From an uncultured Anaerolineales bacterium (lineage in GTDB: Bacteria; Chloroflexota; Anaerolineae; Anaerolineales; UBA11858): a stretch of 63,654 nt of DNA. A model generated the notes under the pieces. That model did not search any database. It was not told where the DNA came from and saw only the letters and a list, made by a program, of their open reading frames with translations. The stretch spans positions 1-63,654 of the forward strand of contig CAYWFK010000007.1 of the NCBI GenBank assembly GCA_964457375.1, written 5' to 3'. The stretch's first letter is position 1; every line of letters starts with the position of its first letter. The position numbers and the translations under genes were made by a program. Positions 5,780-40,411 of this stretch are shown one piece after another.

Positions 5780-6364
5780 TCAGGGGGATTGGACAAGGGA
5801 GAGAAAGTAACGGTGAAAGCGGTCGTCGCCGGTGAGTTCCGGATGGAATGATGTGGCGAGAAGGCGCCCCTGACGCACGGCTACGATGCTTCCGTCTTCC
5901 AGTGTGGCAAGCGGTTCGGCGTCTCCCTGAATTGATTCGATGAGGGGGGCGCGGATAAAGACGGCGTGGAAGGGTGCCCCGGAGGAGTCAACAGCTTTCA
6001 GCGCGGGGATGTCCAGATCGGTTTCGAAGCTGTCAATTTGTCTGCCGAATGCGTTGCGTGCTACTTGAATATCCATCAGGGAGAGCAAGGGCTGTGTGCG
6101 GTGGGCATCTTTGGAGAGGAAGATTGCTCCGGCGCATGTACCCCATATGGCTTTTTCTTTGCCGAAAGATCTGAGCGGTACAATCAGGCCAAATTCATCA
6201 GCCAGCTTGCCGATGGTTGTGGACTCGCCCCCGGGGATAATCAGCCCGTCGATGTCATCGAGTTGTTCCGGCAGACGAATCTCCGTTGTTTCTACGCCGA
6301 TTCGTTCCAGCATCCCAAGATGTTCGAGGAAATCCCCTTGCAGGGCGAGTACACCGATTTTCAT
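5780..6364 (-). CDS. pdxT: Pyridoxal 5'-phosphate synthase glutaminase subunit
   Basis: MKIGVLALQG start, IPGGESTT, GTCAG (catalytic Cys), FHPE (His-Glu); directly downstream of pdxS. Start moved from 6388 to 6364. Confidence 0.95.
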   Translation of the reverse strand: MKIGVLALQGDFLEHLGMLERIGVETTEIRLPEQLDDIDGLIIPGGESTTIGKLADEFGLIVPLRSFGKEKAIWGTCAGAIFLSKDAHRTQPLLSLMDIQVARNAFGRQIDSFETDLDIPALKAVDSSGAPFHAVFIRAPLIESIQGDAEPLATLEDGSIVAVRQGRLLATSFHPELTGDDRFHRYFLSLVQSP

Positions 6365-6368
6365 GGTT

Positions 6369-25724: not shown

Positions 25725-28040
25725 TTATGGTGCGCCTGGCTGATGGTCCCGAAGAGGAGCGGCATTGTTTACAGACCATAGCGGGAAGTCGCTTTTCCCG
25801 TTGGGAGGAATCCCCGGCGGTGCAGCATACCCGGCATTCGACAAAAGCCAGTTGCGCAGGATTTTTTCGCTTACTCCGAACGGCTGGAATACCGTGGATG
25901 CGGCGCGTATCAGCAGAATGATGTAGCGATCGATATCCAGAGATGCCGGGTCAGGCCGCTCCGGAAGATCCCAGGCGTGAACACCGGGGCTGCCGATGGT
26001 GTACAGGAAGCGCACGCGTTGCCCGGGTTTTGTCTTTTTGCCGATTGCCTGGAGCTGGATGGCGGCGCGTGCAGCCGGCGGCAGGGTGCGGTATTCGTCG
26101 ATGGTGCGGCTGATTTTTTGCGAAACGAGCAGTTCCTGAAGGGGAATGCGGCCGGCGCGCAGATCCTGCAAGCGGTGGCGCAGCATGTTCGTCAAATCGG
26201 GCAGCGCCCGGGTGAGATGCCCGGGTGTTTGAATCCTGGCGAGGCGTTCGAGCATGGCTTGCTGGATGCCGGCGATGAAGGGGGGTGTATCACGGCGGCG
26301 GGCTTCGATACCGCGTATTTTCAGGGTGCCGTTTTGGAAAACGCCGAAAAAACGGTTGGCTACCGGCACCCGGTCGTCGATGCGGGAGGGCAGAAAAGCA
26401 ATCCAGCGGTATATGCCATCCAGCGCAATCGGCAGACCGGTGCGTTCCGAGATGGCATTCAGCACGGGTTGAAAATCTTCTGCGCATGATGCACCCGGTT
26501 TTTTGATCCACATGCCATCCACATACATGTGCAGAACGGTAAATCCGTGGCCTTCGACGATTTCCTTGGCGAGCAGAATGGCTTCGCGCCCGTAGGCTGT
26601 AACGGATTCGTGCGCCTCGATGCGGCCGAAGCGTGCGTTTTTATACCCGAGATAGCCAAAACAGGTAACCAGCAGCCACTTGTGGGCTGATGCATAAGCA
26701 CGATAGCGCCTGATGCGCGGATCTTTGGGGTGCAAGGATGCAATGCGCGTTTTCAGGTGTATGCGTTTTTCCAGAAGCGGTTGTAGAGTACGCGGCACCA
26801 GCCCTTTTTTGTCGGTGTCGATGTACAGATTCAGCGCCGGCACGCGGCGGGCGGACGGGATGTGCTCCCCCACCGTTTCCGGCGAAATATTGAAGTGTGC
26901 CATAATGCTCGGATACATCGAGGTGAAATCGATTTCCGCTACGTTTTTATGCAAGCCTGTCAGCGGCTGGTAGACGAGCCCGCCGCGGTCGGCGTGAATC
27001 AGTTCCAGCGCGGATTTGGGGTGTTCTGCCTGCTGTTTGTGCCAGGGAACCAGGATTTTGCTTCGTAGTGCTGTGGTGATTTCCATGGATGATATTCCTG
27101 TGCCGGGTGATAGACGGGCGGCACTTTGCAATGAAAGCCCGGTTACACGTGCCATTTCGAGTACGCCATCCAGGCCATAGTTGCCGAAAAGGACGGTGTT
27201 GCATACATCGATATGCCCGCGTCCGAACAGGCGGATTTGCCCGCCGCGATAAATCACCTGACCGTATGAAAAATAAGTGCGGTCTTTGCGTTTGTCGATT
27301 TTCAATGAGGCTTCGCGGTTGAGTGGCAGCGGGATGTTGGCTGTGCGGGAATGTTCCAGAAGGTAAGCGAGCAGCCAGGTATCTCCCCAGGCGGTGAGAA
27401 GCAAATCGGGGTCGCAGCGGCGCAGCAGGGCAGAGACCCCGACCAGCAGGGAACGCGCCGGTTCGAGCGTGAGCGTGTAATCGTTTTGCCCGCAGTGTAC
27501 CCGGAGTGCCCGGGGCGCTGCGTGAGACGGGTCGCAGTCCGGTTTGATGGTAAGCAAGCGCAGCGGAGGCGGTACCGGGTTGATATCCCATGGTGAATCG
27601 AGTGCTTCGATATGCAGGATTTGGTTGTCTTCACCGATTTGCAATCGGCAGTGTGCCAGTGGAAAGGTGCTGTGAAGAGCGTGATAGCGCAGCGCCAGGG
27701 GAATATCGGCATCGTAATAGGTCAGGTCGGGGAATGCTCTGGCAGCAGCCCTGAATACATGTGGCTGGCTGGCGGCATCTGCCACGCTGGCGGAAAGAAC
27801 GCGGATGGGTCCGGAATGAAAGATGTCGTTGCGTTCGGTGCGTGAAAGTTGTACGGGGATAGGCTGGTTTCTCAAAAATTTCCAAAGGGCACGCAATCGC
27901 GGCGCTGCCCCGGCGGCGTAGAAAGTGACCGGGAAATCCTGCCGCAGGCGGTAACGTTTTCTGTCTTCACCGATGAGCCAGATGATGACCCCCTCTTTGG
28001 GAACGGCGAAGATATCAAGCAGCCAACCGCATATTTCCAT
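25725..28040 (-). CDS. Family B DNA polymerase, PolB2 (Dpo2-like) subfamily; exonuclease motifs lost
   Basis: Motif A DFTSMYPS; motif B KWLLVTCFGYLGY; motif C reduced to HMYVDG; RGIEARRRDTP thumb; no DxE/NxxxFD exonuclease motifs. Confidence 0.9.
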   Translation of the reverse strand: MEICGWLLDIFAVPKEGVIIWLIGEDRKRYRLRQDFPVTFYAAGAAPRLRALWKFLRNQPIPVQLSRTERNDIFHSGPIRVLSASVADAASQPHVFRAAARAFPDLTYYDADIPLALRYHALHSTFPLAHCRLQIGEDNQILHIEALDSPWDINPVPPPLRLLTIKPDCDPSHAAPRALRVHCGQNDYTLTLEPARSLLVGVSALLRRCDPDLLLTAWGDTWLLAYLLEHSRTANIPLPLNREASLKIDKRKDRTYFSYGQVIYRGGQIRLFGRGHIDVCNTVLFGNYGLDGVLEMARVTGLSLQSAARLSPGTGISSMEITTALRSKILVPWHKQQAEHPKSALELIHADRGGLVYQPLTGLHKNVAEIDFTSMYPSIMAHFNISPETVGEHIPSARRVPALNLYIDTDKKGLVPRTLQPLLEKRIHLKTRIASLHPKDPRIRRYRAYASAHKWLLVTCFGYLGYKNARFGRIEAHESVTAYGREAILLAKEIVEGHGFTVLHMYVDGMWIKKPGASCAEDFQPVLNAISERTGLPIALDGIYRWIAFLPSRIDDRVPVANRFFGVFQNGTLKIRGIEARRRDTPPFIAGIQQAMLERLARIQTPGHLTRALPDLTNMLRHRLQDLRAGRIPLQELLVSQKISRTIDEYRTLPPAARAAIQLQAIGKKTKPGQRVRFLYTIGSPGVHAWDLPERPDPASLDIDRYIILLIRAASTVFQPFGVSEKILRNWLLSNAGYAAPPGIPPNGKSDFPLWSVNNAAPLRDHQPGAP

Positions 28041-30870: not shown

Positions 30871-32517
30871 ATGATGTCAATTGACAAAGAAAGATTATTG
30901 GCTACGCTAAAACGTATCGACAGGGGGAAAATCAGGGAAGAAGATGTATTCTTCCTGAATGATGCCTGTCGTGAAATGATGGAAATTATCGACGTTCAGG
31001 GGAAAATGCAGGGGAGCAGCTTCTGGGCTGACCGGGCAATCAGCCTGGTGAAGGCTTTGGTGGAAATCTCTTCTTTGCAGCAGGGAGAAGCGATTGCCAG
31101 GGCTGCTGTGGAGAGTATTACCCGTTATTGGGGAATGGACTCCGGGGCATTGATTGTTTGGGATGCCGACATGGACAAACCGGTCAACCGGGTGACTTGC
31201 GGGGACGTCGACTGGGAAGGGCTTCTTTCACCTTATTTGGAGATGAAGACGGAAAATATGCCGCTGGCGGCGTTGTTCGACAGGGACTATACCCAGCTGC
31301 CCTGGGTGTTCAATGGCTTCGATGATGAAGGCCTGACCGATGCGGAAAAGGACTTCATTCGCAAGAATGGAATCAAAACGTTGGTGACGATTCCGATAAT
31401 GGCGGATGGCATGGTGATTGGTTTGATTTTGACCGCAGATGTCAGCAAGGAGCATGCGCTGACCGAGCAGCAATTGGCATTGGGAGGTTTGTTTGCCAAT
31501 CAGGCGGGTATCCTGATTGAGAGGACACGGCTTTACAAGGCGACGCAGAAACGCGCTGCTGAATTGCAGGCATTGCATCAAATCAGTTTGAGTCTCACTG
31601 CCAGCCTCGATTTGCAAAAGGTGCTGCAAGCCATTCTCGAAAGCACCTTGCGAATGCTTGTGGATGCCGAAGATGCTCATATTTTCCTGTTCGACGGCAG
31701 AAAACTGAGTTTTGGGGCTGTTTTGTGGCTGGATGGTAACAAGGAAAAAGTCTGGTCTCAACCCCGCGAAAACGGCTTGACGAATACGGTTGCGCAGAGA
31801 GGAAACTTGATTTATATTCCGGATATGCAGCGTCATGAATTATTCAAGGGGATGCCGTCCAACTGGAAAGGATCGATTATCGGTATGCCATTGAAAATCG
31901 GACATCGGGTTGTGGGGGTGATGACGGTCGCGCATCCGGAAACGAATGCATTTACGGCGGATGAAATCCGGATTTTACGTTTGATTGGCGATCAAGCGGC
32001 GATTGCTATCGAAAACGCCCGTTTGCATGATTTAGCCAATCGTCAGGCTCATACGGATATGTTGACGAATTTGCCGAACCGCCGGGCTTTGATCGAACGC
32101 CTGGAAGATGAAATCAGACGTTCGAAACGATACGAGCATTATTTTACGATTGTCATGATGGATCTGGACCGTTTCAAGCGCGTCAACGATACTTTCGGAC
32201 ACCCGACCGGTGATGCGGTGCTCAAAAATATTGCGGAAAGCATGAGTGATGTGATTCGCGAAACCGATTTTCTGGCGCGATATGGCGGCGATGAATTTAC
32301 CCTTTTGTTGCCTGAAACGGATTTTGCAACGGCAAAGGCCTTAAGTGATCGCTTGAAAGAGGTCATTGCCGGTTATTGTGACAAGAACCGGCTGATTGGG
32401 TCTATTAAACTTGGCTTGTCAGTCGGTATTGCAACTTTTCCGGAACATGGGAAAACAGTGCGGGATTTATTGGCGAGTGCAGATTCGAAAATGTATCGAG
32501 ACAAAACGTTAGGTTGA
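30871..32517 (+). CDS. GAF-GAF-GGDEF diguanylate cyclase
   Basis: Two GAF domains, DMLTNLPNRR, DLDRFKRVND, I-site RETD and intact RYGGDEF. Confidence 0.92.
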   Translation: MMSIDKERLLATLKRIDRGKIREEDVFFLNDACREMMEIIDVQGKMQGSSFWADRAISLVKALVEISSLQQGEAIARAAVESITRYWGMDSGALIVWDADMDKPVNRVTCGDVDWEGLLSPYLEMKTENMPLAALFDRDYTQLPWVFNGFDDEGLTDAEKDFIRKNGIKTLVTIPIMADGMVIGLILTADVSKEHALTEQQLALGGLFANQAGILIERTRLYKATQKRAAELQALHQISLSLTASLDLQKVLQAILESTLRMLVDAEDAHIFLFDGRKLSFGAVLWLDGNKEKVWSQPRENGLTNTVAQRGNLIYIPDMQRHELFKGMPSNWKGSIIGMPLKIGHRVVGVMTVAHPETNAFTADEIRILRLIGDQAAIAIENARLHDLANRQAHTDMLTNLPNRRALIERLEDEIRRSKRYEHYFTIVMMDLDRFKRVNDTFGHPTGDAVLKNIAESMSDVIRETDFLARYGGDEFTLLLPETDFATAKALSDRLKEVIAGYCDKNRLIGSIKLGLSVGIATFPEHGKTVRDLLASADSKMYRDKTLG

Positions 32518-32523
32518 TGAATA

Positions 32524-33672
32524 GTGGTGAGTGACAAGTTGAAAATTCCAGGTGTTCAGGCTGCTGTTGATGTGTGGAAGAATATTCAGGAAGTCGATTT
32601 GCGTCCCGTCCGTGAGGAGGCGGAACGCAATGTGCGCATCGCTATTGTCGGAAAGGCGGGAACGGGGAAACAGGCACTTGCGGCACAGATGCGCTATGAT
32701 CCTGCACTTCCGGAGCAGCGTACCCATACCCCCGTTTGGTTGCTGGAACCGGTGGATGCAGGTGATGACCTCGACGCAGACCTGATTATCTTGCTGGTTG
32801 ATTTATTTGATCAAAAGTACGCGCGTGAAGCGGAACTGCTGCGGCAATGGCAGCAACTTGGGAAGCAGGTGCTGACGATTTTTGTCTTGTCGGCAGATGA
32901 GAATATTGATATGGCGGAAGAAAAACTGGCCAAACTGACCTCCGGCAATGTGTTGGCAGGCTGCATTGGAAACCCCGAGTTTATCAAACAACATTTCGTC
33001 CCGTCTGTAATCAGCCTGCTTGCGGAAGATTTGCTCTCACTTGGCAGGCAATTTCCTCTCTTTCGCTTGCCGATTGCCCGCAAACTAATCAATGACGTTT
33101 CTTTTTCCAATGCCATGTATGCTTTCAGCACGGGAATCGGTGAAATCGTTCCTGTGCTGGATATTCCGCTGAATGTGGCGGATGTTGTCGTGCTGACAAA
33201 AGCGCAGGCATTTTTGGTGTATAAACTTGGGCTGCTGTTCGGGTATTCCGTTCATTGGCGGGATTATCTTGCGGAGTTCAGCGGTATTTTGGGCGGTGGT
33301 TTTCTGTGGCGGCAGATTGCGCGTCAATTGATTGGCTTGATTCCCGTTTGGGGAATTGTTCCGAAGACGGCAGTGGCATATGCAGGCACTTATGCGGTGG
33401 GGGAGGCTGTTCTGGCGTGGTACATAACCGGGCGACAGGTAACGAAAGAGCAGCTGCGCCGGCTGTACCGAAAGGCATTTGCATCGGGAAAAAACCTGGC
33501 GAAATCACTGGCTTCCAAAGCCGCCCCTTCACGCCTGAAACTCTTCAAACGGAAAACGAAAAATGCACTGTCTGCCGGCGGGAAAACAAACAACAAACCG
33601 TGCCCGGCTTGCGGGAAAAACAATCAGCCGGATGCGCGGTTCTGCCAGTATTGCGGGAGGGTGCTCGAGTGA
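32524..33672 (+). CDS. Degenerate P-loop GTPase-like + DUF697/YcjF-like domain + C-terminal zinc ribbon
   Basis: IAIVGKAGTGKQ, IVPVLDIPLNVADVVVLTKAQ, CPACGKNN...FCQYCG. Confidence 0.65.
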   Translation: MVSDKLKIPGVQAAVDVWKNIQEVDLRPVREEAERNVRIAIVGKAGTGKQALAAQMRYDPALPEQRTHTPVWLLEPVDAGDDLDADLIILLVDLFDQKYAREAELLRQWQQLGKQVLTIFVLSADENIDMAEEKLAKLTSGNVLAGCIGNPEFIKQHFVPSVISLLAEDLLSLGRQFPLFRLPIARKLINDVSFSNAMYAFSTGIGEIVPVLDIPLNVADVVVLTKAQAFLVYKLGLLFGYSVHWRDYLAEFSGILGGGFLWRQIARQLIGLIPVWGIVPKTAVAYAGTYAVGEAVLAWYITGRQVTKEQLRRLYRKAFASGKNLAKSLASKAAPSRLKLFKRKTKNALSAGGKTNNKPCPACGKNNQPDARFCQYCGRVLE

Positions 33673-36600
33673 ATTGGCAAATCACCCGCCCGAAGGTCAT
33701 CGTTCCCCGGCGAAGGTCCAATATCCTTTCACGCAGAAGGCTGCTGGCTGCTTTCGAAGATATTCTGGATTACAAGCTGATTTTGCTGATTTCTCCCCCC
33801 GGTTATGGAAAAACGACATTACTCGTCGATATGGCGCACCAGTCTGAGCTGCCGGTTTGCTGGTATTCGCTTGATCCGCTGGATGAAGAGCCTCAGCGTT
33901 TTCTCAGCCATTTCATCGCATCGATTGCCCAGCGTTTTCCTGAATTCGGTGAACGCTCTATGGCGCTTGTTCAGGATGATTTTCAGATCGAGGCAAACCT
34001 TGTTCAGATTGTCAATGCGATTGTAAACGATGCTTACGATCATATCCATGAGCATTTCATCATGGTGCTGGATGATTTTCATACTGTCGAAAATAACCGG
34101 ACGGTGATCGACTTCATCAATCGTTTCATCCAGCAGGTCGATGAAAATTTCCACCTTGTGATTTCTTCGCGCACCCTGCTTTCACTGCCGGATTTACCCC
34201 TGATGGTCAGCCGGTCTCAGGTTTGGGGGTTGAGCTTCGAAGAACTTGCTTTTCGTCCCGATGAAATTCAGGCGCTGGTTTCGCAAAACTACAGGCTTTC
34301 ACTTACCCGTGCCGAGGCGAACGCGCTGGAGCAGCGTACCGAGGGATGGATTACGGGGCTGATTCTTTCTGCTGAAACGGATTGGGTAAACAGGGACGGG
34401 CAGGTTTTGTTTAGCCGTATCTCCGGGGTGAATTTGTATGAGTACTGGGCGCAGCAGGTGCTCGAACGACAACCCCCCGAAGTCAGGGATGCTTTGCTGC
34501 GCACCTCCTTGCTGGATGAGTTCAACGGGCAAATTTGCGGCGAGGTGATCGGGAAACCGCCGAAAGGGTTTACCTGGGAAAAAATAACCGCTGTGCTGAT
34601 GAAGAATAACCTCTTCGTTCAGACAATTGATGATCAAAGTACGTGGCTCAGGTATCATCGTTTGTTCCGCGATTTTCTGCGTGCCAAAATGGCTGAGTTG
34701 TATCCGAAAGAAAGAGCGGCGATTCTTTGGCGTTTGGCACAGTATTTTGTAAAAAAGGATGAATGGGAACAAGCGTATGCGATTTACCTGCGTTTGGAGG
34801 ATTATGATGCGGCTGCGCAATTAATCGCCAGCGCGGGGCGTTCGTTGCTGGGCAGCGGGCGGCTTTCGGCTTTGGCAGACTGGATCGATCGTTTGCCCAG
34901 GCAGACGCGGGATTCCTACCCGGTGCTGTTGTCGCTGCGTGGGTATGTGGCTGCCATGTTTGGCGATGGCGACGAAGGGCTGGCGCTGCTCAATCAGGCT
35001 GCGGAGCGTTTTCAGGCACTGAATGACAAAGAGCGTCTGGCTGGTGTGCTTTCGTGGCGCGCTGCCGTGCATCGGATGATGGGGTATTACCAAACCTCGA
35101 TTGCGGATTCGAAAAAGATCATTGCTTTGGCTGCGGAAATCGAAAATCCTGATATGTATGTTGCCGAGGCATACAGGAATTATGGACTGAGCCTTTATCG
35201 CCTGGGGGAAATCAGGAATAGTGTCGAATATGTGGAGAAAGCGCTGGATACTTACCTGAGAATTGGAGAAGATGATCTCGCTGCTCAGACGAGTGCAGAT
35301 TTGGGGATAATTTTCAGAAACCTTCAGGTATATGAAAGAGCGGAAAAAGCTTATACCCGGGCGCTTGACCATTGGCGGGAAACAGGAAATTATGTTCAAC
35401 AAGTGTCAATCTTGAATAATCTGGGTGTGCTGGTGCAGTCTCAGGGAGATTACAGGCGGGCTCATGAATTGTTCGAAGAAGCCATGGGCAAAGCACACGG
35501 GATCGGTTATTTGCGGGCTGAATCTTTTGCCTTGACGAGTCTTGCTGATTTGTATCTTGAGCTGGAAGCCTACCAGGCAGCCCGAGATGCTTATGCCAAC
35601 GCTGAGGCTCTTGTGGACCAAACCGAAGACCGCTATTTGATGCTTTATATCCTCTCGAAGAGGGTGTTCCTGGCAAATCAGGGCTTCGACGCGGAAGAAG
35701 ACCCTCGCGTCCTGTTGGGAACGATGGCAGGTATCATCGGACGTGACAGCTCGGATTATGAATGTGGTATGCTGGCATTGACTGCCGGCACCCTGGCTGT
35801 CGAATGCGAAGCGTTTTCAGAAGCGGAGCAGCAGTTTGTGCAGGCGGTCGAGTGTCTTTCAAAGGGTGGAAAACCTCTTGAATGTGCACATGCCGGTTTT
35901 TCGCTGGCGAATCTTTGCTTTCTGCGCTCGGAACAGGATAAAGCACTGGAGCATTTGCAGAAAGCGTTCCAGTGGCTTGAAGTCAGCGGGTTTGATTGTT
36001 CCATGGCTGTACTGGGCCGGGAATTCAAGGACTTGTTTGTTGCCTTCAAGGAAATGCCTGCGGTCAGTCGGAAGATTGTCCCGCTTCTTTCGAGAATCGA
36101 AGCATTCGAGAAGCAATTACCCGGCATTCGAAAAGAAATTCGCCGTATGGTGGCATCGAATGCTTTTGCGCCTCCCAGGCTTGAAATCCGGGCGTTTGGC
36201 ACTGCCCGGGTAGAAATCGACGGAAAACCGGTAACAGGCTCGGACTGGATGCAGCAGCGCATTGTACGAAGCTTGTTTTTTTATCTGCTTGCCCATCCGT
36301 CGTATGGGGTTTCGAAAGATGTGATTGGGACGGTGTTTTGGCCTGAAAGCAGCAGCACCCGGCTGAAAAGGCAATTCAAGAATGCGATTTATCGGCTGCG
36401 GCAGGCTTTGGGCAAGAATGTCGTGTTGTTCGATGGTGACGTGTATTGGTTCAACCGCGAGCTGGATTATGAGTATGATGTGGAAATATTCCGCGAAAAG
36501 CTGGAAACCGCCGAAAAAATGGAGGATCCTGAAATCCGCCTGAATGCTTATCAAGAGGCTATCGAGTTGTATCGTGGTGATTATTTGCAGGATATCGGTG

Positions 36601-36905
36601 ACGGGTGGGCTATTCTGGAACGGGAGTTGCTGCGCAGGGCTTATCAGGATGCCTTGTTACATGCGGCAGAGATACGCTTTGAGCGCGGTGAGTATGAAAA
36701 GGCACTGGATTTGTGCGAGAAAGCACTTCATACGGATAACTGCATGGAACCGGCTTATCGCCTTGAAATGCAAGTTTATGATGCGCTGGGAAACCGCTCG
36801 GGGGTTGTGAGAGTTTACAAGCGTTGTGTGAATACACTCGAAAAAGAACTGGGGGTTGTCCCTTCGCCGCAAACGGAAAAGCTTTATTTGTACCTGACGC
36901 ACTGA
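33669..36905 (+). CDS. MalT-like (STAND) ATPase-TPR-BTAD transcriptional activator
   Basis: Start reassigned to GTG 33669 (overlaps upstream TGA). RPKVIVP...SPPGYGKTT Walker A, MVLDDFH Walker B, central TPR repeats, C-terminal SARP-like wHTH (LEIRAFG) and BTAD (AIELYRGDYL..W...ERE.LR). Confidence 0.88.
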   Translation: MNWQITRPKVIVPRRRSNILSRRRLLAAFEDILDYKLILLISPPGYGKTTLLVDMAHQSELPVCWYSLDPLDEEPQRFLSHFIASIAQRFPEFGERSMALVQDDFQIEANLVQIVNAIVNDAYDHIHEHFIMVLDDFHTVENNRTVIDFINRFIQQVDENFHLVISSRTLLSLPDLPLMVSRSQVWGLSFEELAFRPDEIQALVSQNYRLSLTRAEANALEQRTEGWITGLILSAETDWVNRDGQVLFSRISGVNLYEYWAQQVLERQPPEVRDALLRTSLLDEFNGQICGEVIGKPPKGFTWEKITAVLMKNNLFVQTIDDQSTWLRYHRLFRDFLRAKMAELYPKERAAILWRLAQYFVKKDEWEQAYAIYLRLEDYDAAAQLIASAGRSLLGSGRLSALADWIDRLPRQTRDSYPVLLSLRGYVAAMFGDGDEGLALLNQAAERFQALNDKERLAGVLSWRAAVHRMMGYYQTSIADSKKIIALAAEIENPDMYVAEAYRNYGLSLYRLGEIRNSVEYVEKALDTYLRIGEDDLAAQTSADLGIIFRNLQVYERAEKAYTRALDHWRETGNYVQQVSILNNLGVLVQSQGDYRRAHELFEEAMGKAHGIGYLRAESFALTSLADLYLELEAYQAARDAYANAEALVDQTEDRYLMLYILSKRVFLANQGFDAEEDPRVLLGTMAGIIGRDSSDYECGMLALTAGTLAVECEAFSEAEQQFVQAVECLSKGGKPLECAHAGFSLANLCFLRSEQDKALEHLQKAFQWLEVSGFDCSMAVLGREFKDLFVAFKEMPAVSRKIVPLLSRIEAFEKQLPGIRKEIRRMVASNAFAPPRLEIRAFGTARVEIDGKPVTGSDWMQQRIVRSLFFYLLAHPSYGVSKDVIGTVFWPESSSTRLKRQFKNAIYRLRQALGKNVVLFDGDVYWFNRELDYEYDVEIFREKLETAEKMEDPEIRLNAYQEAIELYRGDYLQDIGDGWAILERELLRRAYQDALLHAAEIRFERGEYEKALDLCEKALHTDNCMEPAYRLEMQVYDALGNRSGVVRVYKRCVNTLEKELGVVPSPQTEKLYLYLTH

Positions 36906-36957
36906 CCGGGGGAAGCGTAAGCCTCAACCGGCAAACAAAACGGGGGAAAGCAATCGC

Positions 36958-36993
36958 TTAAGAGCCACTTTCGGAGACTGGCATTTGCATAAT
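36958..36993 (+). promoter_or_regulatory. 21-bp element copy 1 plus CATAAT -10 box
   Basis: TTAAGAGCCACTTTCGGAGAC at 36958-36978; CATAAT at 36988-36993 (9-nt gap). Confidence 0.7.
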
Positions 36994-36999
36994 AGAACT

Positions 37000-37133
37000 A
37001 ACCGGCAACGGTTTTGTGCGACTGGATACAGGAATGTTTCTGTATCCATAAACGTGGTTAACTGCTTGATAATAAAAGGCACCTGACCCGGTTGGGGGCG
37101 CGAGGGGAAACGCTCCCAACCCCCTTTTTTATT
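37000..37133 (+). ncRNA. Candidate small RNA (~130 nt) between promoter copy 1 and an intrinsic terminator
   Basis: Putative promoter upstream, perfect 9-bp hairpin 37023-37048, terminator 37090-37133, no usable ORF. Confidence 0.4.
37090..37133 (+). terminator. Intrinsic terminator
   Basis: GGTTGGGGGCG/CGCTCCCAACC 11-bp stem (one G-U) followed by CCCTTTTTTATT. Confidence 0.75.
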
Positions 37134-37189
37134 GCCTTTGGAAAAGGAGCTTGCAAGTTTGTAAGGTGCAGCGGTTTCTGAGAGACGGT

Positions 37190-37226
37190 TTAAGAGCCAC
37201 TTTCGGAGACCGCTTTTTGTCATAAT
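37190..37226 (+). promoter_or_regulatory. 21-bp element copy 2 plus extended -10 (TG-N-CATAAT)
   Basis: Identical TTAAGAGCCACTTTCGGAGAC at 37190-37210; TGTCATAAT at 37218-37226 (10-nt gap to CATAAT). Confidence 0.7.
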
Positions 37227-37247
37227 GGGAAAGTCATATGAAATTCG

Positions 37248-37263
37248 GATGTCTATAGACATC
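37248..37263. promoter_or_regulatory. Perfect 16-bp palindrome, candidate operator
   Basis: GATGTCTATAGACATC is its own reverse complement; lies in the predicted 5' leader of the peptide operon. Confidence 0.5.
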
Positions 37264-37327
37264 TATTGAAAATACAAGTTGAAATCTCGTTATCGTTTGA
37301 TGTAAAAACCGAAAGGAGCGTGTAAGG

Positions 37328-37507
37328 ATGAAAGAAATGCAGCAGAAAATGATTGGGTTGATGGGACGAGTTGACAAAAAAGCTATTCAGATTATTTTTA
37401 TCGTTGTTACGCTGAGCTTGTTGGTGATTGGCGGCGGAGCACCTGAAATTGACGGTGGGCCCAGTGGCCCTGGTCCTTTGAGCGTTTTTCTTGGGAGCTT
37501 CTTCTAA
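37328..37507 (+). CDS. 59-aa signal-peptide-like precursor peptide (not in ORF track)
   Basis: AAGGAG RBS 9 nt upstream; MKEMQQKMIGLMGRVDKKAIQIIFIVVTLSLLVIGGGAPEIDGGPSGPGPLSVFLGSFF; TAA abuts the next GTG start. Confidence 0.8.
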   Translation: MKEMQQKMIGLMGRVDKKAIQIIFIVVTLSLLVIGGGAPEIDGGPSGPGPLSVFLGSFF

Positions 37508-38101
37508 GTGATTCTATTGCTGGCCGTGATAGCCGGGCTGGTAACAGGCTGGGCGCGGGCCAGAGTCCGAAACCGACATTTGAATTACCCTGATATTCGT
37601 GAGGGATGGCTGGTGTTACTCGCTGTCATCCCTCAGTTGTTGGTATTCAGAATTCCGGCAGTAGCGAAAAGGCTGCCTTTGTCTCTTGTAATCGGTATTC
37701 TGGTTGTCTCTCAGGCGGTGCTGGTCTGGTTCGCATGGCGTAATCGTCACCAGCAGGGTTTTACCTTTTTATGTGCCGGTTTGTTTTTGAACTTACTGGT
37801 AATGTCGCTAAATGGCGGGTTGATGCCTATTCGTCCTGAGGCAGTTGTCAAAATATTCCCTGCGCTATCACCCGATGTCTGGCAAGTTGGTGCCCGCCTT
37901 GGTTATGGCAAGGATATTGTTTTGACTTTGGAACAAACCAGGTTGTGGTGGCTTTCAGATTATTTCGTTCTTGCAGATAACCCCTGGTTTCGGATGGCTT
38001 TCAGTGTCGGGGATATCTTTATTGCCGTTGGGGCGTTTCTTTACTTATGGTCACTTGGAGGGCCAAATCTACAATCCGAGAAAGGAATGAATCTATCATG
38101 A
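37508..38101 (+). CDS. DUF5317-family membrane protein, putative LspA-like aspartic peptidase
   Basis: LNLLVMSLNGGLMPI...LWWLSDYF...FSVGDIFIAVG motifs characteristic of DUF5317; several TM helices. Confidence 0.8.
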   Translation: MILLLAVIAGLVTGWARARVRNRHLNYPDIREGWLVLLAVIPQLLVFRIPAVAKRLPLSLVIGILVVSQAVLVWFAWRNRHQQGFTFLCAGLFLNLLVMSLNGGLMPIRPEAVVKIFPALSPDVWQVGARLGYGKDIVLTLEQTRLWWLSDYFVLADNPWFRMAFSVGDIFIAVGAFLYLWSLGGPNLQSEKGMNLS

Positions 38102-38448
38102 ATGCAAACTTTGCAACCGCGACGACTTATCGCGATGTTGCTACCCGCAAGCCATTTTCTGTTTCCACGCTTACGGAAAAGCGCACGGTGATCAACGACA
38201 GAGAAATCGGACGTTTGATTGCTGCTGCTGTGATCAATAAAAGATTTTGTGATTTGCTGCTTTCTGATCCATCTCAGGCAATCACTCAGGGGTTTCAGGG
38301 GGAGTCGTTTCACATTGCGGGCAAAGATCGCGAACTGATTCTCTCGATAAAAGCCAAGACACTTTCCGATTTCGCACAACAACTTGCAAACTACCAACAC
38401 ACTGGAAAAAGGAATGATTACCATCGTACCGACCGCGGACGGTTTTAA
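38098..38448 (+). CDS. Small protein resembling NHLP/Os1348-clan leader-like proteins
   Basis: ATG 38098 overlaps upstream TGA; IGRLIAAAVINKRFCDLLLSDPSQAI resembles the NHLP 'I..A..D..F...LL.DP..AL' motif. Confidence 0.6.
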   Translation: MNANFATATTYRDVATRKPFSVSTLTEKRTVINDREIGRLIAAAVINKRFCDLLLSDPSQAITQGFQGESFHIAGKDRELILSIKAKTLSDFAQQLANYQHTGKRNDYHRTDRGRF

Positions 38449-40411
38449 CGAAGCAGATGTAAATCGCAGCCTGTTCTTGCTGGATGAAAATAACCCGCTG
38501 CCTCCCAAGTCTTTCTTGCAGTTTTCCAACACGGAAGAAACGATTATCTGGCTGCTCGACAAAGAGGGTGTATTTACCTTTTCCGAGGGGGACGGGCTGG
38601 CACTTTTGGACTTGAAATCCGGCGGACTGGTGGGAAAATCGATTTTCGATATTTTTGCAAACTATCCCGATATTACAAAATGCATCCGCCAGACCATGAA
38701 GGGAAAATCCTGCCAGTCTATCGATGAAATCAATGGCAAACTGTGGAAGATGTGGGCTTATCCGGTGCGGGATAAAGGAAACAACCTGACCGGAATTAGC
38801 GGAGTGTTTGTCAATATCACCGAGCAATATCAGCGTGAACGGATACAAAAGATCGTTTTGAGTCTTTCGAACACGCTGCGGAATGTGGAAACTTCCGGGG
38901 ATATTCCCGCGGTTATCCTTGACCGGATCATGAGCATTGTCTCGGCAGATGCGGCAATGTTGTTCTGGCGCAAGGGGGTTGCAGGGGTGATGCGGGTCGA
39001 GCTTGGACGCGGCGCCTGGGAATCGTGGAGCGGGAAAACTTTCGATGAAAAAAACGAAACTTTGCGCAGCAAAGAAGCCCGGCGTGTTTTTCGGAGCGGC
39101 AAACCGTACCTTGGTAGTACGCCTGCCTTTTTGGCGGAAAATACGACGGGGCAGCATAGCCCGCTGCATGTGTATGGGGTGCCTCTGGTTTCCATGAATA
39201 ACGTTGCCGGTGCAATTTGGGTGGGCAGAGAAAAACCGTTTTTTGACTATGAGACAATGCTGCTCAAAGCCATTGGGGAAATTGCCGCAAATTCGATACG
39301 TAGTGCCACGCAGCACACTACGACGCAGCGCAGGTTACAGCGCCTTGTCGCTTTGCACAATATCGACAAGGCAATCAGCAACAGCCTGGAATTGCACGTT
39401 ACATTGAATGTGCTTCTCGAGCAGGTCGTTACCCAGCTGGGGATTCATGCCGCCATGGTTTATCTGGTGAAGCCGTATACCCAGACGATGGAATACGCTG
39501 CGGGAAGAGGCATTCAGATGATTGACCTTGTCCAGACGGAATTGCCGCTGGGCGAAGGGCTGGCGGGGCAGGTTGCTGTCAACCGGAAGTTTTTGTATAT
39601 TCAGGATTTGCACAGTGTCAGTGATGCCGGGCGACTGGTGAGAAAAAGTTTCTTCGAAAAGGAAGGCATCGTTTCTTATTGTGGTATTCCTTTGCTGGTA
39701 AAAGGGCAGGTGAAGGGCGTTTTGGAAATTTATTCCCGCCAGGTACTCAATCCCGAAGCGGAATGGGTTGATTTTCTGGAAACACTGGCTACCCAGGCAG
39801 CGATTGCCATCGACAATGCGGAATTGTTCCAGAACCTGCAAAAGACGAACGCGGAGCTTTCGGTTGCTTATGATGCCACCCTGGAAGGCTGGGTTCATGC
39901 CCTGGATTTGCGTGATAAAGAAACCGAGGGGCATACGAAACGGGTGACGGAAGTTACTTTGCGTTTGGCGCGGGCACTGGGCATCGGGGAAGCTGATTTG
40001 ATGCACACGCGCCGGGGAGCATTGCTGCATGATATTGGAAAAATGGCTATCCCCGATGCGATTTTGTATAAACCGGGTCCCTTGAACGAGCATGAATGGG
40101 AAATCATGCGTAAACACCCGGTATATGCATACCAGCTGCTTTCTCCCATCCGGTTTCTGAGACAAGCGCTGGCTATTCCATACTATCACCATGAGAAATG
40201 GGACGGGAGCGGTTATCCCTTTGGGTTGAGCGGGGAGCGCATCCCTCGGATTGCCCGTATTTTCGCCGTGGCTGACGTATGGGATGCCCTGCGCTCAGAC
40301 AGGCCTTATCGAAAAGCCTGGCAGGATAGTGATGCCAAGGATTACTTACGGGAAAATGCGGGGAAGCATTTCGACCCCGATGTTGTTCATATGTTCTTTC
40401 GGATTTTTTAG
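38414..40411 (+). CDS. PAS-GAF-GAF-HD-GYP c-di-GMP phosphodiesterase
   Basis: RDKETEGHTKRV, LHDIGK, HHEKWDGSGYP, ADVWDALRSDRPYR; start 38414 (or TTG 38384). Confidence 0.92.
   Translation: MITIVPTADGFNEADVNRSLFLLDENNPLPPKSFLQFSNTEETIIWLLDKEGVFTFSEGDGLALLDLKSGGLVGKSIFDIFANYPDITKCIRQTMKGKSCQSIDEINGKLWKMWAYPVRDKGNNLTGISGVFVNITEQYQRERIQKIVLSLSNTLRNVETSGDIPAVILDRIMSIVSADAAMLFWRKGVAGVMRVELGRGAWESWSGKTFDEKNETLRSKEARRVFRSGKPYLGSTPAFLAENTTGQHSPLHVYGVPLVSMNNVAGAIWVGREKPFFDYETMLLKAIGEIAANSIRSATQHTTTQRRLQRLVALHNIDKAISNSLELHVTLNVLLEQVVTQLGIHAAMVYLVKPYTQTMEYAAGRGIQMIDLVQTELPLGEGLAGQVAVNRKFLYIQDLHSVSDAGRLVRKSFFEKEGIVSYCGIPLLVKGQVKGVLEIYSRQVLNPEAEWVDFLETLATQAAIAIDNAELFQNLQKTNAELSVAYDATLEGWVHALDLRDKETEGHTKRVTEVTLRLARALGIGEADLMHTRRGALLHDIGKMAIPDAILYKPGPLNEHEWEIMRKHPVYAYQLLSPIRFLRQALAIPYYHHEKWDGSGYPFGLSGERIPRIARIFAVADVWDALRSDRPYRKAWQDSDAKDYLRENAGKHFDPDVVHMFFRIF

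What the first reader, a model, noticed from the sequence alone, without database searches (positions are those of the whole stretch)
36958..37226. Identical 21-bp element duplicated 232 bp apart, each positioned over the -35 region of a CATAAT promoter
Seen: TTAAGAGCCACTTTCGGAGAC at 36958-36978 and 37190-37210, followed after 9 and 10 nt by CATAAT; neither has a good -35; the element contains TTnnGAG half-sites 12 bp apart. Known: SARP/BTAD-type winged-helix activators bind direct repeats overlapping the -35 region a fixed distance from the -10. Inference: these are the binding sites of the adjacent ATPase-TPR-BTAD protein, driving two separate transcripts.
Basis: partly seen in the sequence, partly recalled or inferred. 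Interest (0 to 1): 0.75.

Follow-up and report, generated by a model that had tools for sequence, protein, structure and literature searches.

The report
Conserved operator of a STAND–SARP activator
The duplicated 21-bp element is real and is very probably the DNA site where the neighbouring large regulator docks to switch on two promoters that lack a normal -35 box. The same design recurs next to this uncharacterised regulator family across Chloroflexota, outside the actinobacteria where such activators (SARPs) are known.

Summary
TTAAGAGCCACTTTCGGAGAC occurs exactly twice (36958-36978, 37190-37210), followed after 9 and 10 nt by CATAAT, with no -35 match.

It is not a recent duplication. Four related genomes keep both copies, with the same 9/10-nt spacings, in otherwise diverged spacers.

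Across about 50 loci that encode orthologues of the adjacent regulator (35-74% identity), the same position holds 2-4 tandem direct repeats of period 12 bp. A -10-like hexamer follows exactly 10 nt later, and then comes a small-peptide/DUF5317 operon.

The regulator's C-terminal 250 aa fold as a SARP module (TM 0.82 to AfsR). The residues that co-vary most with operator sequence lie on one face of its recognition helix. One of them aligns with a base-contacting residue of AfsR.

In peat metatranscriptomes, RNA of two family members starts 18-24 nt after the hexamer, with none over the operator.

Binding, activation and the window's own transcription start sites are untested.

Differences from known SARPs are that the module is C-terminal behind a MalT-like NTPase-TPR, the repeat period is 12 rather than 11 bp, and the host is Chloroflexota.

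The upstream copy drives a non-coding stretch whose only conserved part is an unexplained hairpin. Whether its transcript is separate is unresolved.

The parts
33669..36905 (+). Regulator gene, 1078 aa: MalT-like STAND NTPase, winged-helix domain, TPR sensor and a C-terminal SARP module. The GTG start overlaps the stop codon of the upstream 382-aa gene (GTGA).
   Evidence: Pfam hits to TPR_12, BTAD, NPHP3_N and AAA_16. A profile of 32 orthologues matches MalT 8bob at positions 12-419 (E 8e-53) and AfsR. NCBIfam MalT E 1e-65. The start codon was read. The sequence is identical to P0001.
36153..36902 (+). SARP module of the regulator (residues 829-1078): an OmpR-type wHTH followed by BTAD.
   Evidence: AlphaFold2 model with pLDDT 90.7. 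Best PDB folds are the AfsR SARP in transcription initiation complexes 8k60 and 8hvr (TM 0.81-0.83) and EmbR 2ff4/2fez (TMq 0.79). The profile aligns positions 11-247 to AfsR 25-261, E 4.6e-7.
36354..36410 (+). Predicted recognition helix (residues 896-914, STRLKRQFKNAIYRLRQAL). R901, Q902, N905 and A906 are the positions that co-vary with operator sequence. F903, K904, R909 and R911 are invariant.
   Evidence: The helix spans positions 68-86 of the model. These columns rank 2, 1, 4 and 9 of 206 in the co-variation test. AfsR T88 aligns with N905 and AfsR R92 with R909.
36958..36978 (+). Operator copy 1 (promoter P1). Unit 1 is TTAAGAGCC (36958-36966) and unit 2 is TTCGGAGAC (36970-36978), with period 12.
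   Evidence: The site is conserved in L001 8746-8766, L002 5899-5919 and L103 2775-2795.
36988..36993 (+). P1 -10-like hexamer CATAAT, 9 nt after the operator.
   Evidence: The 9-nt gap and an nATAAT hexamer are kept in all four clade members.
36998..37136 (+). Non-coding stretch downstream of P1, a candidate RNA of about 130 nt. No ORF is conserved among the four genomes.
   Evidence: Fold energy -51.5 kcal/mol, z = -4.2. No shared small ORF. No Rfam match.
37090..37121 (+). Conserved hairpin: stem GGTTGGGGGCG / CGCTCCCAACC, loop CGAGGGGAAA. A T-run follows at 37125-37130.
   Evidence: Both stem and loop are conserved in all four genomes, with one GC-to-AU compensatory pair and one G-U pair. 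The T-run is present only in the window and L001.
37178..37186 (+). Possible weak third repeat unit (CTGAGAGAC), 12 bp upstream of copy 2.
   Evidence: One-mismatch hit to TTNNGAG-N5-TTNNGAG. Its 12.7-bit score is within the noise, and it is not conserved in relatives. Three or four units do occur in other loci.
37190..37210 (+). Operator copy 2 (promoter P2). Unit 1 is at 37190-37198 and unit 2 at 37202-37210.
   Evidence: The site is conserved in L001 8952-8972, L002 6125-6145 and L103 3014-3034. It is homologous in position to the single operator of about 50 other loci.
37221..37226 (+). P2 -10-like hexamer CATAAT, 10 nt after the operator and preceded by TGT (TGn).
   Evidence: A 10-nt gap to nAnnnT is found in 50 of 52 family loci.
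37328..37507 (+). First gene of the P2 operon: a 59-aa peptide with one transmembrane helix and a Gly/Pro-rich tail.
   Evidence: ORF listed. Orthologues occupy the same position in L001, L002, L103, L003 and L005. No Pfam or NCBIfam hit.
37508..38101 (+). DUF5317 membrane protein, 197 aa.
   Evidence: Pfam PF17248, E 3.4e-31. It lies downstream of the regulator in about 45 loci.
38098..38448 (+). 116-aa protein, coupled to the preceding gene by an ATGA overlap. It has sub-threshold similarity to NHLP-clan / Frankia_peptide domains.
   Evidence: Sequence read. PF14407 E 0.03 and NF038399 E 0.0015, both below their cut-offs; orthologues score down to 1.4e-6.
38415..40411 (+). PAS-GAF-HD-GYP protein, a putative c-di-GMP phosphodiesterase and the last gene of the operon.
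   Evidence: Pfam HD_5 5e-38 and GAF 1e-21. The same gene type ends the operon in L001, L002, L029, L030, L040, L097, L098 and L102.

Best explanation
The 21-mer is a pair of 12-bp direct-repeat units. The 9-bp cores TTAAGAGCC and TTCGGAGAC are each followed by 3 less constrained bases. Together they form the operator of the regulator encoded just upstream, a MalT-like STAND NTPase-TPR protein whose C-terminal 250 residues are a SARP module (wHTH plus BTAD). The proposed mechanism is as follows. When the NTPase-TPR part is switched on by an unknown signal, two SARP modules (more where three or four units exist) bind head-to-tail, one per repeat. They would cover about -42 to -22 of promoters that have a usable -10 (CATAAT) but no -35, and would supply the missing -35 contact by holding sigma region 4 and RNA polymerase, as AfsR does at afsS. 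P2 (copy 2) drives the operon of 59-aa membrane peptide, DUF5317, NHLP-like protein and HD-GYP. P1 (copy 1) is an extra promoter found only in this clade. It drives a short non-coding stretch that ends in a conserved hairpin. What has been shown: the sequence facts; conservation of both sites and of their spacing; the family-wide period-12 architecture; the SARP fold; co-variation between recognition-helix residues and operator bases; and, in two relatives, RNA that begins just downstream of the module. What is inferred: binding by this protein; activation rather than repression; the head-to-tail stoichiometry; the start sites in this window; and the signal.
For: 1. Phylogenetic footprint. In alignments of the regulator-to-operon spacers of the window, L001 and L002 (regulators 65% and 57% identical), the only conserved islands are the two operators, their nATAAT hexamers and one hairpin. 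A fourth genome, L103, shows the same pattern.
2. Family-wide architecture. 28 of 47 regulator-to-DUF5317 spacers contain a direct repeat matching at 9 or more of 10 positions at period 12. Any other period from 8 to 16 gives 0-4 loci, and shuffled sequence gives 0.5.
3. Fixed geometry. nAnnnT lies exactly 10 nt after the 21-mer in 50 of 52 loci, and 7 of the 11 other spacings tallied (4-16 nt) give 1-8 loci. P1 has 9 nt in all four clade genomes.
4. No -35. The best TTGACA match at 16-18 bp spacing is 2 of 6 or fewer in 49 of 52 loci.
5. Protein. The model has pLDDT 90.7 and matches the AfsR SARP domain at TM 0.81-0.83 and EmbR at 0.79.
6. Co-variation. Of 206 columns in the C-terminal 240 aa, ranks 1, 2, 4 and 9 are residues 902, 901, 905 and 906. 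Their i, i+1, i+4, i+5 spacing puts them on one face of the recognition helix. R or K at 902 goes with TG at unit positions 3-4 in 36 of 39 loci, and Q902 in 0 of 9 (Fisher 1.3e-7, not corrected for phylogeny). All five loci without N905 have deviant cores. N905 aligns with AfsR T88 and R909 with AfsR R92; these are the base-contacting residues reported in PMC10936776.
7. The operator position resembles the afs box, which spans -40 to -19 with the first 8 bp of each repeat contacted (PMC10936776).
8. Local regulon. There is no other site in the 63.6-kb window. In the genome of L002, only the two local copies matched the strict pattern.
9. RNA. In eight peat metatranscriptomes, depth over the operator and hexamer of L094 is 0. 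For L069 it is 0 except for one depth-9 fragment in one run (X13, 6152-6290) that ends inside the operator. Abundant RNA starts at 6335/6340 in L069 (hexamer 6311-6316) and at 3955-3968 in L094 (hexamer 3932-3937). Adapter orientation indicates sense RNA.
Against: There is no binding, footprint or transcription data for this protein or this DNA. No RNA data exist for the window or its clade.

The loci were collected by searching for the regulator, so adjacency itself is not independent evidence. Two MAGs (L010, L020) have the operator in front of DUF5317 with no regulator next to it.

The co-variation statistics are not corrected for phylogeny, and there are exceptions: L001 has R902 with a Q-type operator, and L049 and L084 have R902 with TTTAAAGCC.

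The register of some operators was set with help from the -10 position, so the '10 nt' count is partly circular. Against that, the repeat cores themselves (C at position 9 in 49 of 52 loci, C at position 21 in 50 of 52) fix the same register.

The wHTH part alone does not detect AfsR by sequence, so the T88/N905 mapping rests on a weak alignment (E 0.064 for the short profile) together with the fold match.

The 5'-most RNA ends lie 18-24 nt after the hexamer, further than a canonical start site. I attribute this to 5' loss in library construction, which is an assumption.

The 12-bp period differs from the 11-bp SARP rule.
Confidence: 0.8

Rival explanations
1. The element and the protein are as described, but P1 and P2 are tandem promoters of one operon rather than two separate transcription units. 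On this reading the conserved hairpin is an attenuator or RNA-level regulatory element within a long leader, and the P1 product is not a stand-alone small RNA.
For: The hairpin is followed by a T-run only in the window and L001. L002 (GGTTTATCTC) and L103 (TAATTTATTCC) have none. In the window, 3 nt (CCC) separate the stem from the T-run, and the terminator scan did not call it. The loop sequence is conserved, which is unusual for a plain terminator.
Against: In the window and L001 the hairpin plus T-run looks like a usable intrinsic terminator. P2 has its own complete operator and -10, at the position used by every other family member. No RNA data are available to decide.
Confidence: 0.3
2. 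The repeats are an operator for repression. By sitting over the -35/spacer region, the adjacent regulator or another protein would block RNA polymerase instead of recruiting it.
For: A site covering -42 to -22 would also occlude polymerase. In peat metatranscriptomes the operons of L069 and L094 are expressed while regulator mRNA is at or near zero depth.
Against: 49 of 52 promoters lack any -35 at the right spacing, so they should be weak without help. SARP modules are known only as activators (PMC10936776, PMC10972967). The site position matches the afs box used for activation. Low regulator mRNA is common for activators.
Confidence: 0.07
3. The 21-mer is the upstream promoter element of an alternative sigma factor and is not a transcription-factor site.
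For: It lies at a fixed distance from a -10-like hexamer, it replaces the -35, and it is conserved across genomes.
Against: It is a tandem repeat of 2-4 units, which sigma -35 elements are not. Its sequence changes between genomes in step with recognition-helix residues of the adjacent wHTH protein. It occurs only at this locus in the window and in the L002 genome, whereas a sigma regulon would be dispersed. The hexamer is of the housekeeping TAnnnT type.
Confidence: 0.04
4. The duplication is a recent local duplication, an assembly artefact or the scar of a mobile insertion, with no regulatory role.
For: Two identical 21-mers lie 232 bp apart in direct orientation.
Against: Both copies are present in four independently assembled genomes whose regulators are only 56-65% identical, within spacers that are otherwise not alignable. 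The 9-nt versus 10-nt difference between the copies is kept in all four. Near-identical sequence is held by several independent metagenome runs.
Confidence: 0.01

Closest known systems
AfsR and the afs box of the afsS promoter (Streptomyces coelicolor; PMC10936776, PMC11301090)
   Same: Both are large regulators that combine a SARP module with a STAND-type NTPase and TPR repeats. In both, two direct repeats cover the -35 and spacer region (afs box -40 to -19; here about -42 to -22) of a promoter with a poor -35. In both, only the first 8-9 bp of each unit are conserved. In both, the target is a small gene immediately downstream of the regulator gene in the same orientation. The fold match is TM 0.81-0.83.
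   Different: The domain order is reversed: here NTPase-TPR-SARP, in AfsR SARP-NOD-TPR. The NTPase here is MalT-like rather than NB-ARC-like. The repeat period is 12 bp rather than 11. The host is Chloroflexota, not Actinobacteria. The targets are a membrane-peptide/DUF5317/HD-GYP operon and a non-coding RNA, not afsS. Sequence identity is about 19%.
Small pathway-specific SARPs (ActII-ORF4, DnrI, RedD) and their heptameric direct repeats
   Same: Both use a wHTH plus BTAD module. Both have heptamer-like cores (TTnnGAG here) repeated in direct orientation over the -35, at a fixed distance from the -10, in two or three copies.
   Different: The canonical rule is 11-bp or 22-bp spacing with the 3' repeat 8 bp from the -10 (PMC10936776). 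Here the period is 12 bp, and the heptamer ends 11-12 bp from the hexamer (the 21-mer ends 9-10 bp from it). Small SARPs have no sensor domains. SARPs are described as exclusive to actinobacteria and always have the module at the N-terminus (PMC10972967).
MalT (E. coli) and other STAND / LAL regulators
   Same: The N-terminal 420 residues match the MalT NTPase-arm region (E 8e-53; NCBIfam MalT E 1e-65), followed by a TPR-like sensor with the DNA-binding domain at the C-terminus. From my own knowledge, not tested here: MalT also binds asymmetric boxes arranged as direct repeats near -35 after ligand- and ATP-driven oligomerisation.
   Different: The C-terminal DNA-binding domain is a SARP module, not a LuxR/GerE helix-turn-helix. 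The operator sequence is unrelated.
EmbR (Mycobacterium tuberculosis)
   Same: A SARP module with the same fold (TMq 0.79-0.80), combined with a signal-input domain.
   Different: EmbR carries a C-terminal FHA domain and its SARP module is N-terminal. Its binding sites are not defined as period-12 repeats.
PimR-type SARP-LAL regulators (PMC3367932, PMC5930380)
   Same: A SARP module fused to a LAL-type ATPase half. The operator is three heptameric direct repeats with 4-nt spacers, and a secondary operator has a different spacer length (PMC10972967). This shows that spacer length can vary within the family.
   Different: In PimR the SARP module is N-terminal and the operator does not overlap the -35. 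The proteins are actinobacterial.

Membership tests
SARP-type transcription activators | OmpR-type winged helix-turn-helix directly followed by a BTAD domain, forming one SARP module | tested here: met
   Pfam BTAD E 1.2e-18. The profile aligns end to end with AfsR residues 25-261 (E 4.6e-7). The AlphaFold2 model (pLDDT 90.7) gives AfsR and EmbR as its top six PDB hits at TM 0.79-0.83 over about 250 columns.
SARP-type transcription activators | SARP module at the N-terminus of the protein (small, medium and large classes; PMC10972967) | tested here: not met
   The module occupies residues 829-1078 of 1078, behind the NTPase and TPR regions.
SARP-type transcription activators | Found exclusively in actinobacteria (PMC10972967) | tested here: not met
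   The named orthologues and motif-bearing genomes are Anaerolineae, Anaerolineales, Chloroflexota, Pelolinea and Chloroflexia MAGs.
SARP-type transcription activators | [quoted passage not shown] | tested here: met
   Two units at 36958-36978 and two at 37190-37210 end 9 and 10 nt before CATAAT, and there is no -35. The same holds in about 50 orthologous loci.
SARP-type transcription activators | Repeats spaced 11 or 22 bp apart (PMC10936776) | tested here: not met
   The period is 12 bp in the window. 28 of 47 loci have a direct repeat matching at 9 or more of 10 positions at period 12, against 2 of 47 at period 11. One review allows heptamers with 4-15-nt spacers (PMC10972967), which would include 12 bp.
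SARP-type transcription activators | 3' repeat at a fixed short distance (8 bp) from the -10 element | tested here: inconclusive
   The distance is fixed: 10 nt from the end of the 21-mer to the hexamer in 50 of 52 loci, and 9 nt at P1 in four genomes. The value differs from 8 bp, being 11-12 nt from the end of the heptamer, and the comparison depends on how the unit is delimited.
SARP-type transcription activators | The protein binds these repeats and activates transcription through contacts with sigma region 4 and RNA polymerase | not testable with these tools
   There is only indirect support: co-variation between recognition-helix residues and operator bases, and RNA onset downstream of the module in two relatives.
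MalT / STAND (LAL-type) regulators | N-terminal P-loop STAND NTPase with a winged-helix arm and a TPR-like sensor | tested here: met
   The Walker A motif PPGYGKTT is visible in the sequence. The profile matches MalT 8bob at positions 12-419, E 8e-53. Precomputed Pfam hits to WHD_MalT and TPR_MalT. NCBIfam MalT E 1.1e-65, below its equivalog cut-off.
MalT / STAND (LAL-type) regulators | C-terminal LuxR/GerE-type helix-turn-helix DNA-binding domain | tested here: not met
   There is no GerE hit, and the C-terminus is a SARP module.
Housekeeping (sigma-70-type) promoter | A -10 hexamer close to TATAAT, a -35 close to TTGACA at 16-18 bp, and a start site 5-9 nt after the -10 | tested here: inconclusive
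   The -10 is met (CATAAT, 5 of 6 matches; P2 is preceded by TGn). The -35 is not met (0-2 of 6 matches). The start site is not measurable for the window. In relatives the 5'-most RNA ends lie 18-24 nt after the hexamer.
Intrinsic terminator (for the hairpin at 37090-37121) | G+C-rich stem-loop immediately followed by a U-tract | tested here: inconclusive
   In the window an 11-bp stem is followed after 3 nt by T6, and L001 has T5. L002 and L103 have no T-run. The loop sequence is conserved, which a terminator does not require.

The most novel reading that the evidence does not exclude
A Chloroflexota-wide signalling module that nobody has described. MalT-like STAND sensors would end in a SARP output domain that reads 12-bp tandem repeats through a few recognition-helix positions (901, 902, 905, 906), so that operator sequence can be predicted from protein sequence. 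Each regulator would control a private mini-regulon made of a small secreted or membrane peptide, DUF5317, an NHLP-like protein and an HD-GYP enzyme. That content suggests a peptide-signal or c-di-GMP circuit. In this clade the regulon would also include a dedicated small RNA whose conserved GAGGGGAAA-loop hairpin is a new RNA element.
Probability: 0.3. Interest if true: 0.75.

Novelty: new variant of a known kind. Interest (0 to 1): 0.6.

Why it matters
SARP activators are treated in the literature as an actinobacterial speciality whose DNA-binding module sits at the N-terminus (PMC10972967). It shows the same output module attached in the opposite order to a MalT-type sensor, in another phylum, with an operator that can be read directly from the genome.

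The regulator, its operator and its target operon sit side by side, and operator and recognition helix vary together. The family therefore offers a natural series for studying how SARP modules read DNA and how a 12-bp rather than an 11-bp repeat is accommodated at RNA polymerase.

It also gives a first regulatory handle on DUF5317, for which the paper library holds no mention, and links it to c-di-GMP turnover genes.

The result does not reveal a new principle of transcription control. It extends a known one.

Tried and rejected
- **Rfam.** The search found only a tRNA elsewhere in the whole window at gathering score. It found nothing credible in 36880-37400 at E up to 10, and nothing in seven related loci. 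The P1 RNA and the leaders are therefore not known families.
- **Dispersed regulon.** The genome-contig scan with TTWRGAGCCACTTTNRGAGMC gave 16 hits, which I estimate to be about chance level. Only three are in Chloroflexota, and the L002 genome has just its two local copies. The PWM scan of the window found nothing else. A dispersed regulon is therefore not supported at this stringency.
- **RNA data for this clade.** No RNA runs are listed for the window or for the L002 genome. L048 is absent from the peat runs.
- **Sequence-only detection of the wHTH.** A single-sequence PDB search hit only TPR proteins. A profile restricted to the wHTH did not reach AfsR. The fold search was needed.
- **Small ORFs between P1 and P2.** None is shared by the four genomes, so a hidden peptide gene was rejected.
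- **A target for the hairpin loop.** The complement TTTCCCCTC occurs at chance frequency and at no telling position.
- **The repeat first picked in L062/L065.** The automatic pick, TTCCCTATCC, turned out to be part of a 256-bp tandem duplication of the 5'UTR and small ORF. The real operator is AGAAAGAGCCACTTAGGGAGAC.
- **A start site 23-24 nt after the hexamer.** I considered this because several RNA contigs begin there. I rejected it as the true start because the ends scatter (3955, 3956, 3960 and 3968 in L094) and because in L094 they fall within or after the ribosome-binding site.
Full report
**Observation**

The 21-mer TTAAGAGCCACTTTCGGAGAC is present exactly twice on the + strand, at 36958-36978 and 37190-37210. 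No further match exists with up to three mismatches, and none of 100 dinucleotide-preserving shuffles gave two matches. Similarity between the two copies runs on to 30 nt at 87%. CATAAT follows after 9 nt (36988-36993) and after 10 nt (37221-37226). At 16-18 bp upstream of either hexamer nothing resembles TTGACA (0-2 of 6 matches), and the consensus promoter scan reported neither site. TTAAGAG and TTCGGAG are 12 bp apart.

**Surroundings**

All of the following genes lie on the + strand.
- A GAF-GAF-GGDEF gene (30871-32517).
- A 382-aa protein with a C-terminal zinc ribbon (32524-33672).
- The regulator (33669-36905, 1078 aa), whose GTG start overlaps the preceding stop codon.
- Copy 1 of the 21-mer.
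- A structured non-coding stretch of about 130 nt ending in a hairpin plus T-run (fold z = -4.2).
- Copy 2 of the 21-mer.
- Four tightly packed genes: a 59-aa membrane peptide (37328-37507), DUF5317 (37508-38101), a 116-aa protein (38098-38448) and a PAS-GAF-HD-GYP protein (38415-40411).

A convergent gene follows these.

**The regulator**

Pfam finds TPR repeats, a C-terminal BTAD domain and weak P-loop NTPase matches. A profile of 32 orthologues matches the MalT NTPase region (8bob, E 8e-53) and AfsR. A profile of the last 250 residues aligns end to end with AfsR residues 25-261 (E 4.6e-7). An AlphaFold2 model of those 250 residues is confident (pLDDT 90.7, pTM 0.84). Its six best PDB matches are the AfsR SARP domain inside transcription initiation complexes (TM 0.81-0.83) and EmbR (TMq 0.79-0.80). 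The protein therefore has MalT architecture, but the LuxR-type DNA-binding end is replaced by a complete SARP module (winged helix-turn-helix plus BTAD). This is the reverse of the AfsR domain order.

**Conservation of both copies**

Orthologous loci were found through the regulator: L001 (65% identity), L002 (57%) and L103 (56%). All have the same gene order and both operator copies.

| Locus | P1 operator, gap, hexamer | P2 operator, gap, hexamer |
|---|---|---|
| L001 | TTAAGAGCCACTTTCAGTGAC, 9 nt, GATAAT | TTAAGAGCCACTTTAAGAGAC, 10 nt, AATAAT |
| L002 | TTAAGAGCCACTTTTGGAGAC, 9 nt, AATAAT | TTAAGAGCCACTTTCGGAGAC, 10 nt, CATAAT |
| L103 | TTAAGAGCCACTTTCGGAGAC, 9 nt, CATAAT | TTAAGAGCCACTTTCGGAGAC, 10 nt, CATAAT |

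In a three-way alignment of the spacers, the only conserved islands are the two operators, their hexamers and one hairpin. A recent duplication or an assembly artefact is therefore excluded. L001's P2 reads TTAAGAGCCACT|TTAAGAGACCAC, which makes the direct-repeat nature of the element plain.

**The family-wide pattern**

A metagenome scan with the regulator profile returned 80 further loci at 35-45% identity. About 45 of them carry DUF5317 230-800 nt downstream of the regulator.
- In 28 of 47 such spacers the best direct repeat matches at 9 or more of 10 positions at a period of exactly 12. Every other period from 8 to 16 gives 0-4 loci, and shuffled sequence gives 0.5.
- The commonest form is TTTGAAGCCTGT|TTTGAAGCCTGG. 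Variants include TTTGGAGCC, TTTGCATCC, TTTGTATCC, TCTGTCCCC, TGTCTACTC and TTTGGTGAG, and some loci have three or four units.
- In 50 of 52 curated loci an nAnnnT hexamer begins exactly 10 nt after the 21-mer, and 7 of the 11 other spacings tallied (4-16 nt) give 1-8 loci.
- In 49 of 52 loci there is no -35 better than 2 of 6 matches at the right spacing.

The register was partly chosen with the hexamer in view. However, the repeat cores fix the same register on their own: position 9 is C in 49 of 52 loci and position 21 is C in 50 of 52. The window's 21-mer is the local version of this operator. Its copy 2 sits at the canonical position. Copy 1 is an additional promoter found only in the four-genome clade, because all other loci have a single operator.

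**Who reads the repeats**

I compared each of 206 variable columns of the C-terminal 240 residues with the operator bases across 51 loci, using permutation z-scores.
- The top columns are residues 902 (z 9.2), 901 (7.2), 905 (6.8, rank 4) and 906 (5.4, rank 9).
- All four lie in the helix at model positions 68-86, which is the recognition helix. Their i, i+1, i+4, i+5 spacing places them on one face.
- R or K at 902 goes with TG at positions 3-4 of the promoter-proximal unit in 36 of 39 loci. Q at 902, as in the window, goes with it in 0 of 9 (Fisher 1.3e-7, not corrected for phylogeny).
- The five loci that lack N905 are exactly those with the most deviant cores.
- In the HMM alignment to AfsR, N905 corresponds to T88 and the invariant R909 to R92. 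These are the two residues reported to hydrogen-bond to bases in the AfsR complex (PMC10936776). That alignment is weak on its own (E 0.064 for the short profile), and a profile of the wHTH alone does not reach AfsR.
- Exceptions exist: L001, L049 and L084.

Taken together, this is the strongest available evidence that the adjacent protein, and not some other factor, reads the repeats.

**Regulon size**

A strict degenerate pattern scanned across 185,579 genomes gave 16 hits, which I estimate to be about the chance number. Only three are in Chloroflexota.
- The L002 genome has only its two local copies.
- Two MAGs (Pelolinea, Chloroflexia) have TTTTGGAGCCACTTTTGGAGCC, then 10 nt, then TTTAAT in front of a DUF5317 gene, with no adjacent regulator.

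A PWM scan of the window finds only the two sites. The regulator thus appears to serve a private, local regulon. The link between operator and DUF5317 holds even where the regulator is encoded elsewhere.

**RNA evidence**

No RNA runs are listed for the window or its clade. Peat metatranscriptomes do contain two family members, and eight runs were laid on each.
- **L069** (operator 6280-6300, TATATT 6311-6316). No abundant RNA lies upstream of 6335. The only upstream signals are two low-depth contigs, one in run X12 (6000-6118, depth 2.2) and one in X13 (6152-6290, depth 9), and the X13 fragment ends inside the operator. Contigs of depth 7-55 begin at 6340 (three runs, two of them joined directly to the adapter), at 6335 (one run), and further downstream at 6367 or 6385 in the other four.
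- **L094** (operator 3901-3921, TAACCT 3932-3937). Depth is zero over 3889-3951. Five of the runs give contigs that start there, at 3955, 3956, 3960 and 3968 and, in one run, 4030, at depths of 33 to 136. In the other three the RNA begins further downstream.

The adapter found at these ends is the read-2 side, which in stranded libraries marks the 5' end in RNA sense. That reading rests on my own knowledge of such libraries. The ends lie 18-24 nt after the hexamer, about 11-17 nt beyond a canonical start. They scatter, and in L094 they fall in or after the ribosome-binding site. I therefore read them as 5'-truncated fragments, which is a usual loss in such libraries. This attribution is an assumption.

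The data place a promoter between the operator and those ends. They do not map the start site.

**Mechanism proposed**

By analogy with AfsR at afsS, two SARP protomers would bind side by side, one per repeat. They would contact the first 8 bp of each unit, cover -40 to -19, and replace the -35 contact by holding sigma region 4 (PMC10936776). I propose that the activated regulator places one SARP module on each 12-bp unit, covering about -42 to -22, and recruits the housekeeping holoenzyme to promoters that have only a -10. The MalT-like NTPase-TPR part would gate this through ligand- and nucleotide-dependent oligomerisation. That part is inference from the known behaviour of the STAND family and is not tested here.

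The differences from the SARP rule are the 12-bp period (canonical 11 or 22) and a slightly longer distance to the -10. One review allows heptamers with 4-15-nt spacers (PMC10972967), so this is a variant and not a contradiction.

**The upstream promoter**

Between P1 and P2 no ORF is shared by the four genomes and no Rfam family matches. Only a hairpin is conserved. Its 10-bp stem shows one GC-to-AU compensatory change and one G-U pair, and its 10-nt loop nGAGGGGAAA is invariant. The window and L001 have a T-run after it, but L002 and L103 do not. P1 may therefore make a separate small RNA of about 130 nt. Alternatively, it may be an upstream promoter whose transcript reads into the operon through a regulatory hairpin. 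I cannot decide between these, and the function of the hairpin is unexplained.

**Comparison and novelty**

SARPs are described as exclusive to actinobacteria, with the module at the N-terminus (PMC10972967). The paper library has no mention of DUF5317, and I found no paper on SARP modules in Chloroflexota or at the C-terminus of MalT-like proteins.

The finding works like a SARP-dependent promoter and its protein contains a true SARP module. It nevertheless fails three textbook family features: module position, taxon and 11-bp period. I rate it a new variant of a known kind.

It is a well-supported and directly testable prediction of a regulator-operator-target system, but it is not a new principle. 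Interest is 0.6.

Noticed in passing
window 37090-37121 (also L001 8866-8895, L002 6018-6047, L103 2909-2938): A hairpin between the two operators has both its stem and its 10-nt loop (nGAGGGGAAA) conserved in all four genomes, while the rest of the spacer is not alignable. A T-run follows in only two of the four. This is too much conservation for a plain terminator, and there is no Rfam match. Its function is unknown.
   Followed up: partly
window 36942-36946 (and the equivalent positions in L001, L002, L103): A GGGGG box lies 12-16 nt upstream of the P1 operator in all four clade genomes. It is absent upstream of P2.
   Followed up: no
window 38098-38448; L098 6452-6730; L040 4404-4736; L030 6908-7195: A 92-133-aa protein in the operon has sub-threshold similarity to NHLP-clan / Frankia_peptide RiPP-leader-like domains (PF14407 E 2.5e-5 to 0.03; NF038399 E 1.4e-6 to 1.5e-3). 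No maturase gene is seen nearby.
   Followed up: partly
L030 6476-6667; L094 3967-4117: In these two loci the first gene behind the operator is not the usual membrane peptide. It is a short peptide made of three tandem repeats (HSPEAGGGCVRR x3; PTSPGTGPHF x3), reminiscent of multi-core peptide precursors. The L094 peptide is highly expressed in peat metatranscriptomes (depth up to 136).
   Followed up: no
window 30871-32517 and 38415-40411: A GAF-GAF-GGDEF gene lies two genes upstream of the regulator, and a PAS-GAF-HD-GYP gene ends the regulated operon. The HD-GYP gene also closes the operon in many distant loci. This suggests a link between the system and c-di-GMP turnover.
   Followed up: partly
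L010 5140-5366 (- strand); L020 7084-7234: Two MAGs have the same operator type in front of DUF5317 with no adjacent regulator. The leader is about 190 nt long and contains two hairpins that show compensatory changes between the two genomes. There is no Rfam match.
   Followed up: partly
L062 3815-4330; L065 4525-5040: A 256-bp tandem duplication covers the 5'UTR, the small ORF and the first codons of DUF5317. The second copy lacks the operator.
   Followed up: partly
window 32524-33672: A 382-aa protein with a weak STAND-like N-terminus and a C-terminal zinc ribbon is translationally coupled to the regulator (GTGA overlap). It is conserved in that position in L001 and L002, but not in more distant loci, where a receiver domain and a ClpB-like ATPase precede the regulator.
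   Followed up: no
L069 5800-6330; L094 3500-3950: In eight peat metatranscriptomes the regulator's 3' region is at or near zero depth, while the operon directly downstream is at depth 7-136.
   Followed up: partly
window 25725-28040 (- strand): A 771-aa ORF looks by eye like a family-B DNA polymerase, which would be unusual for a bacterial chromosome region. It was not checked with any tool.
   Followed up: no
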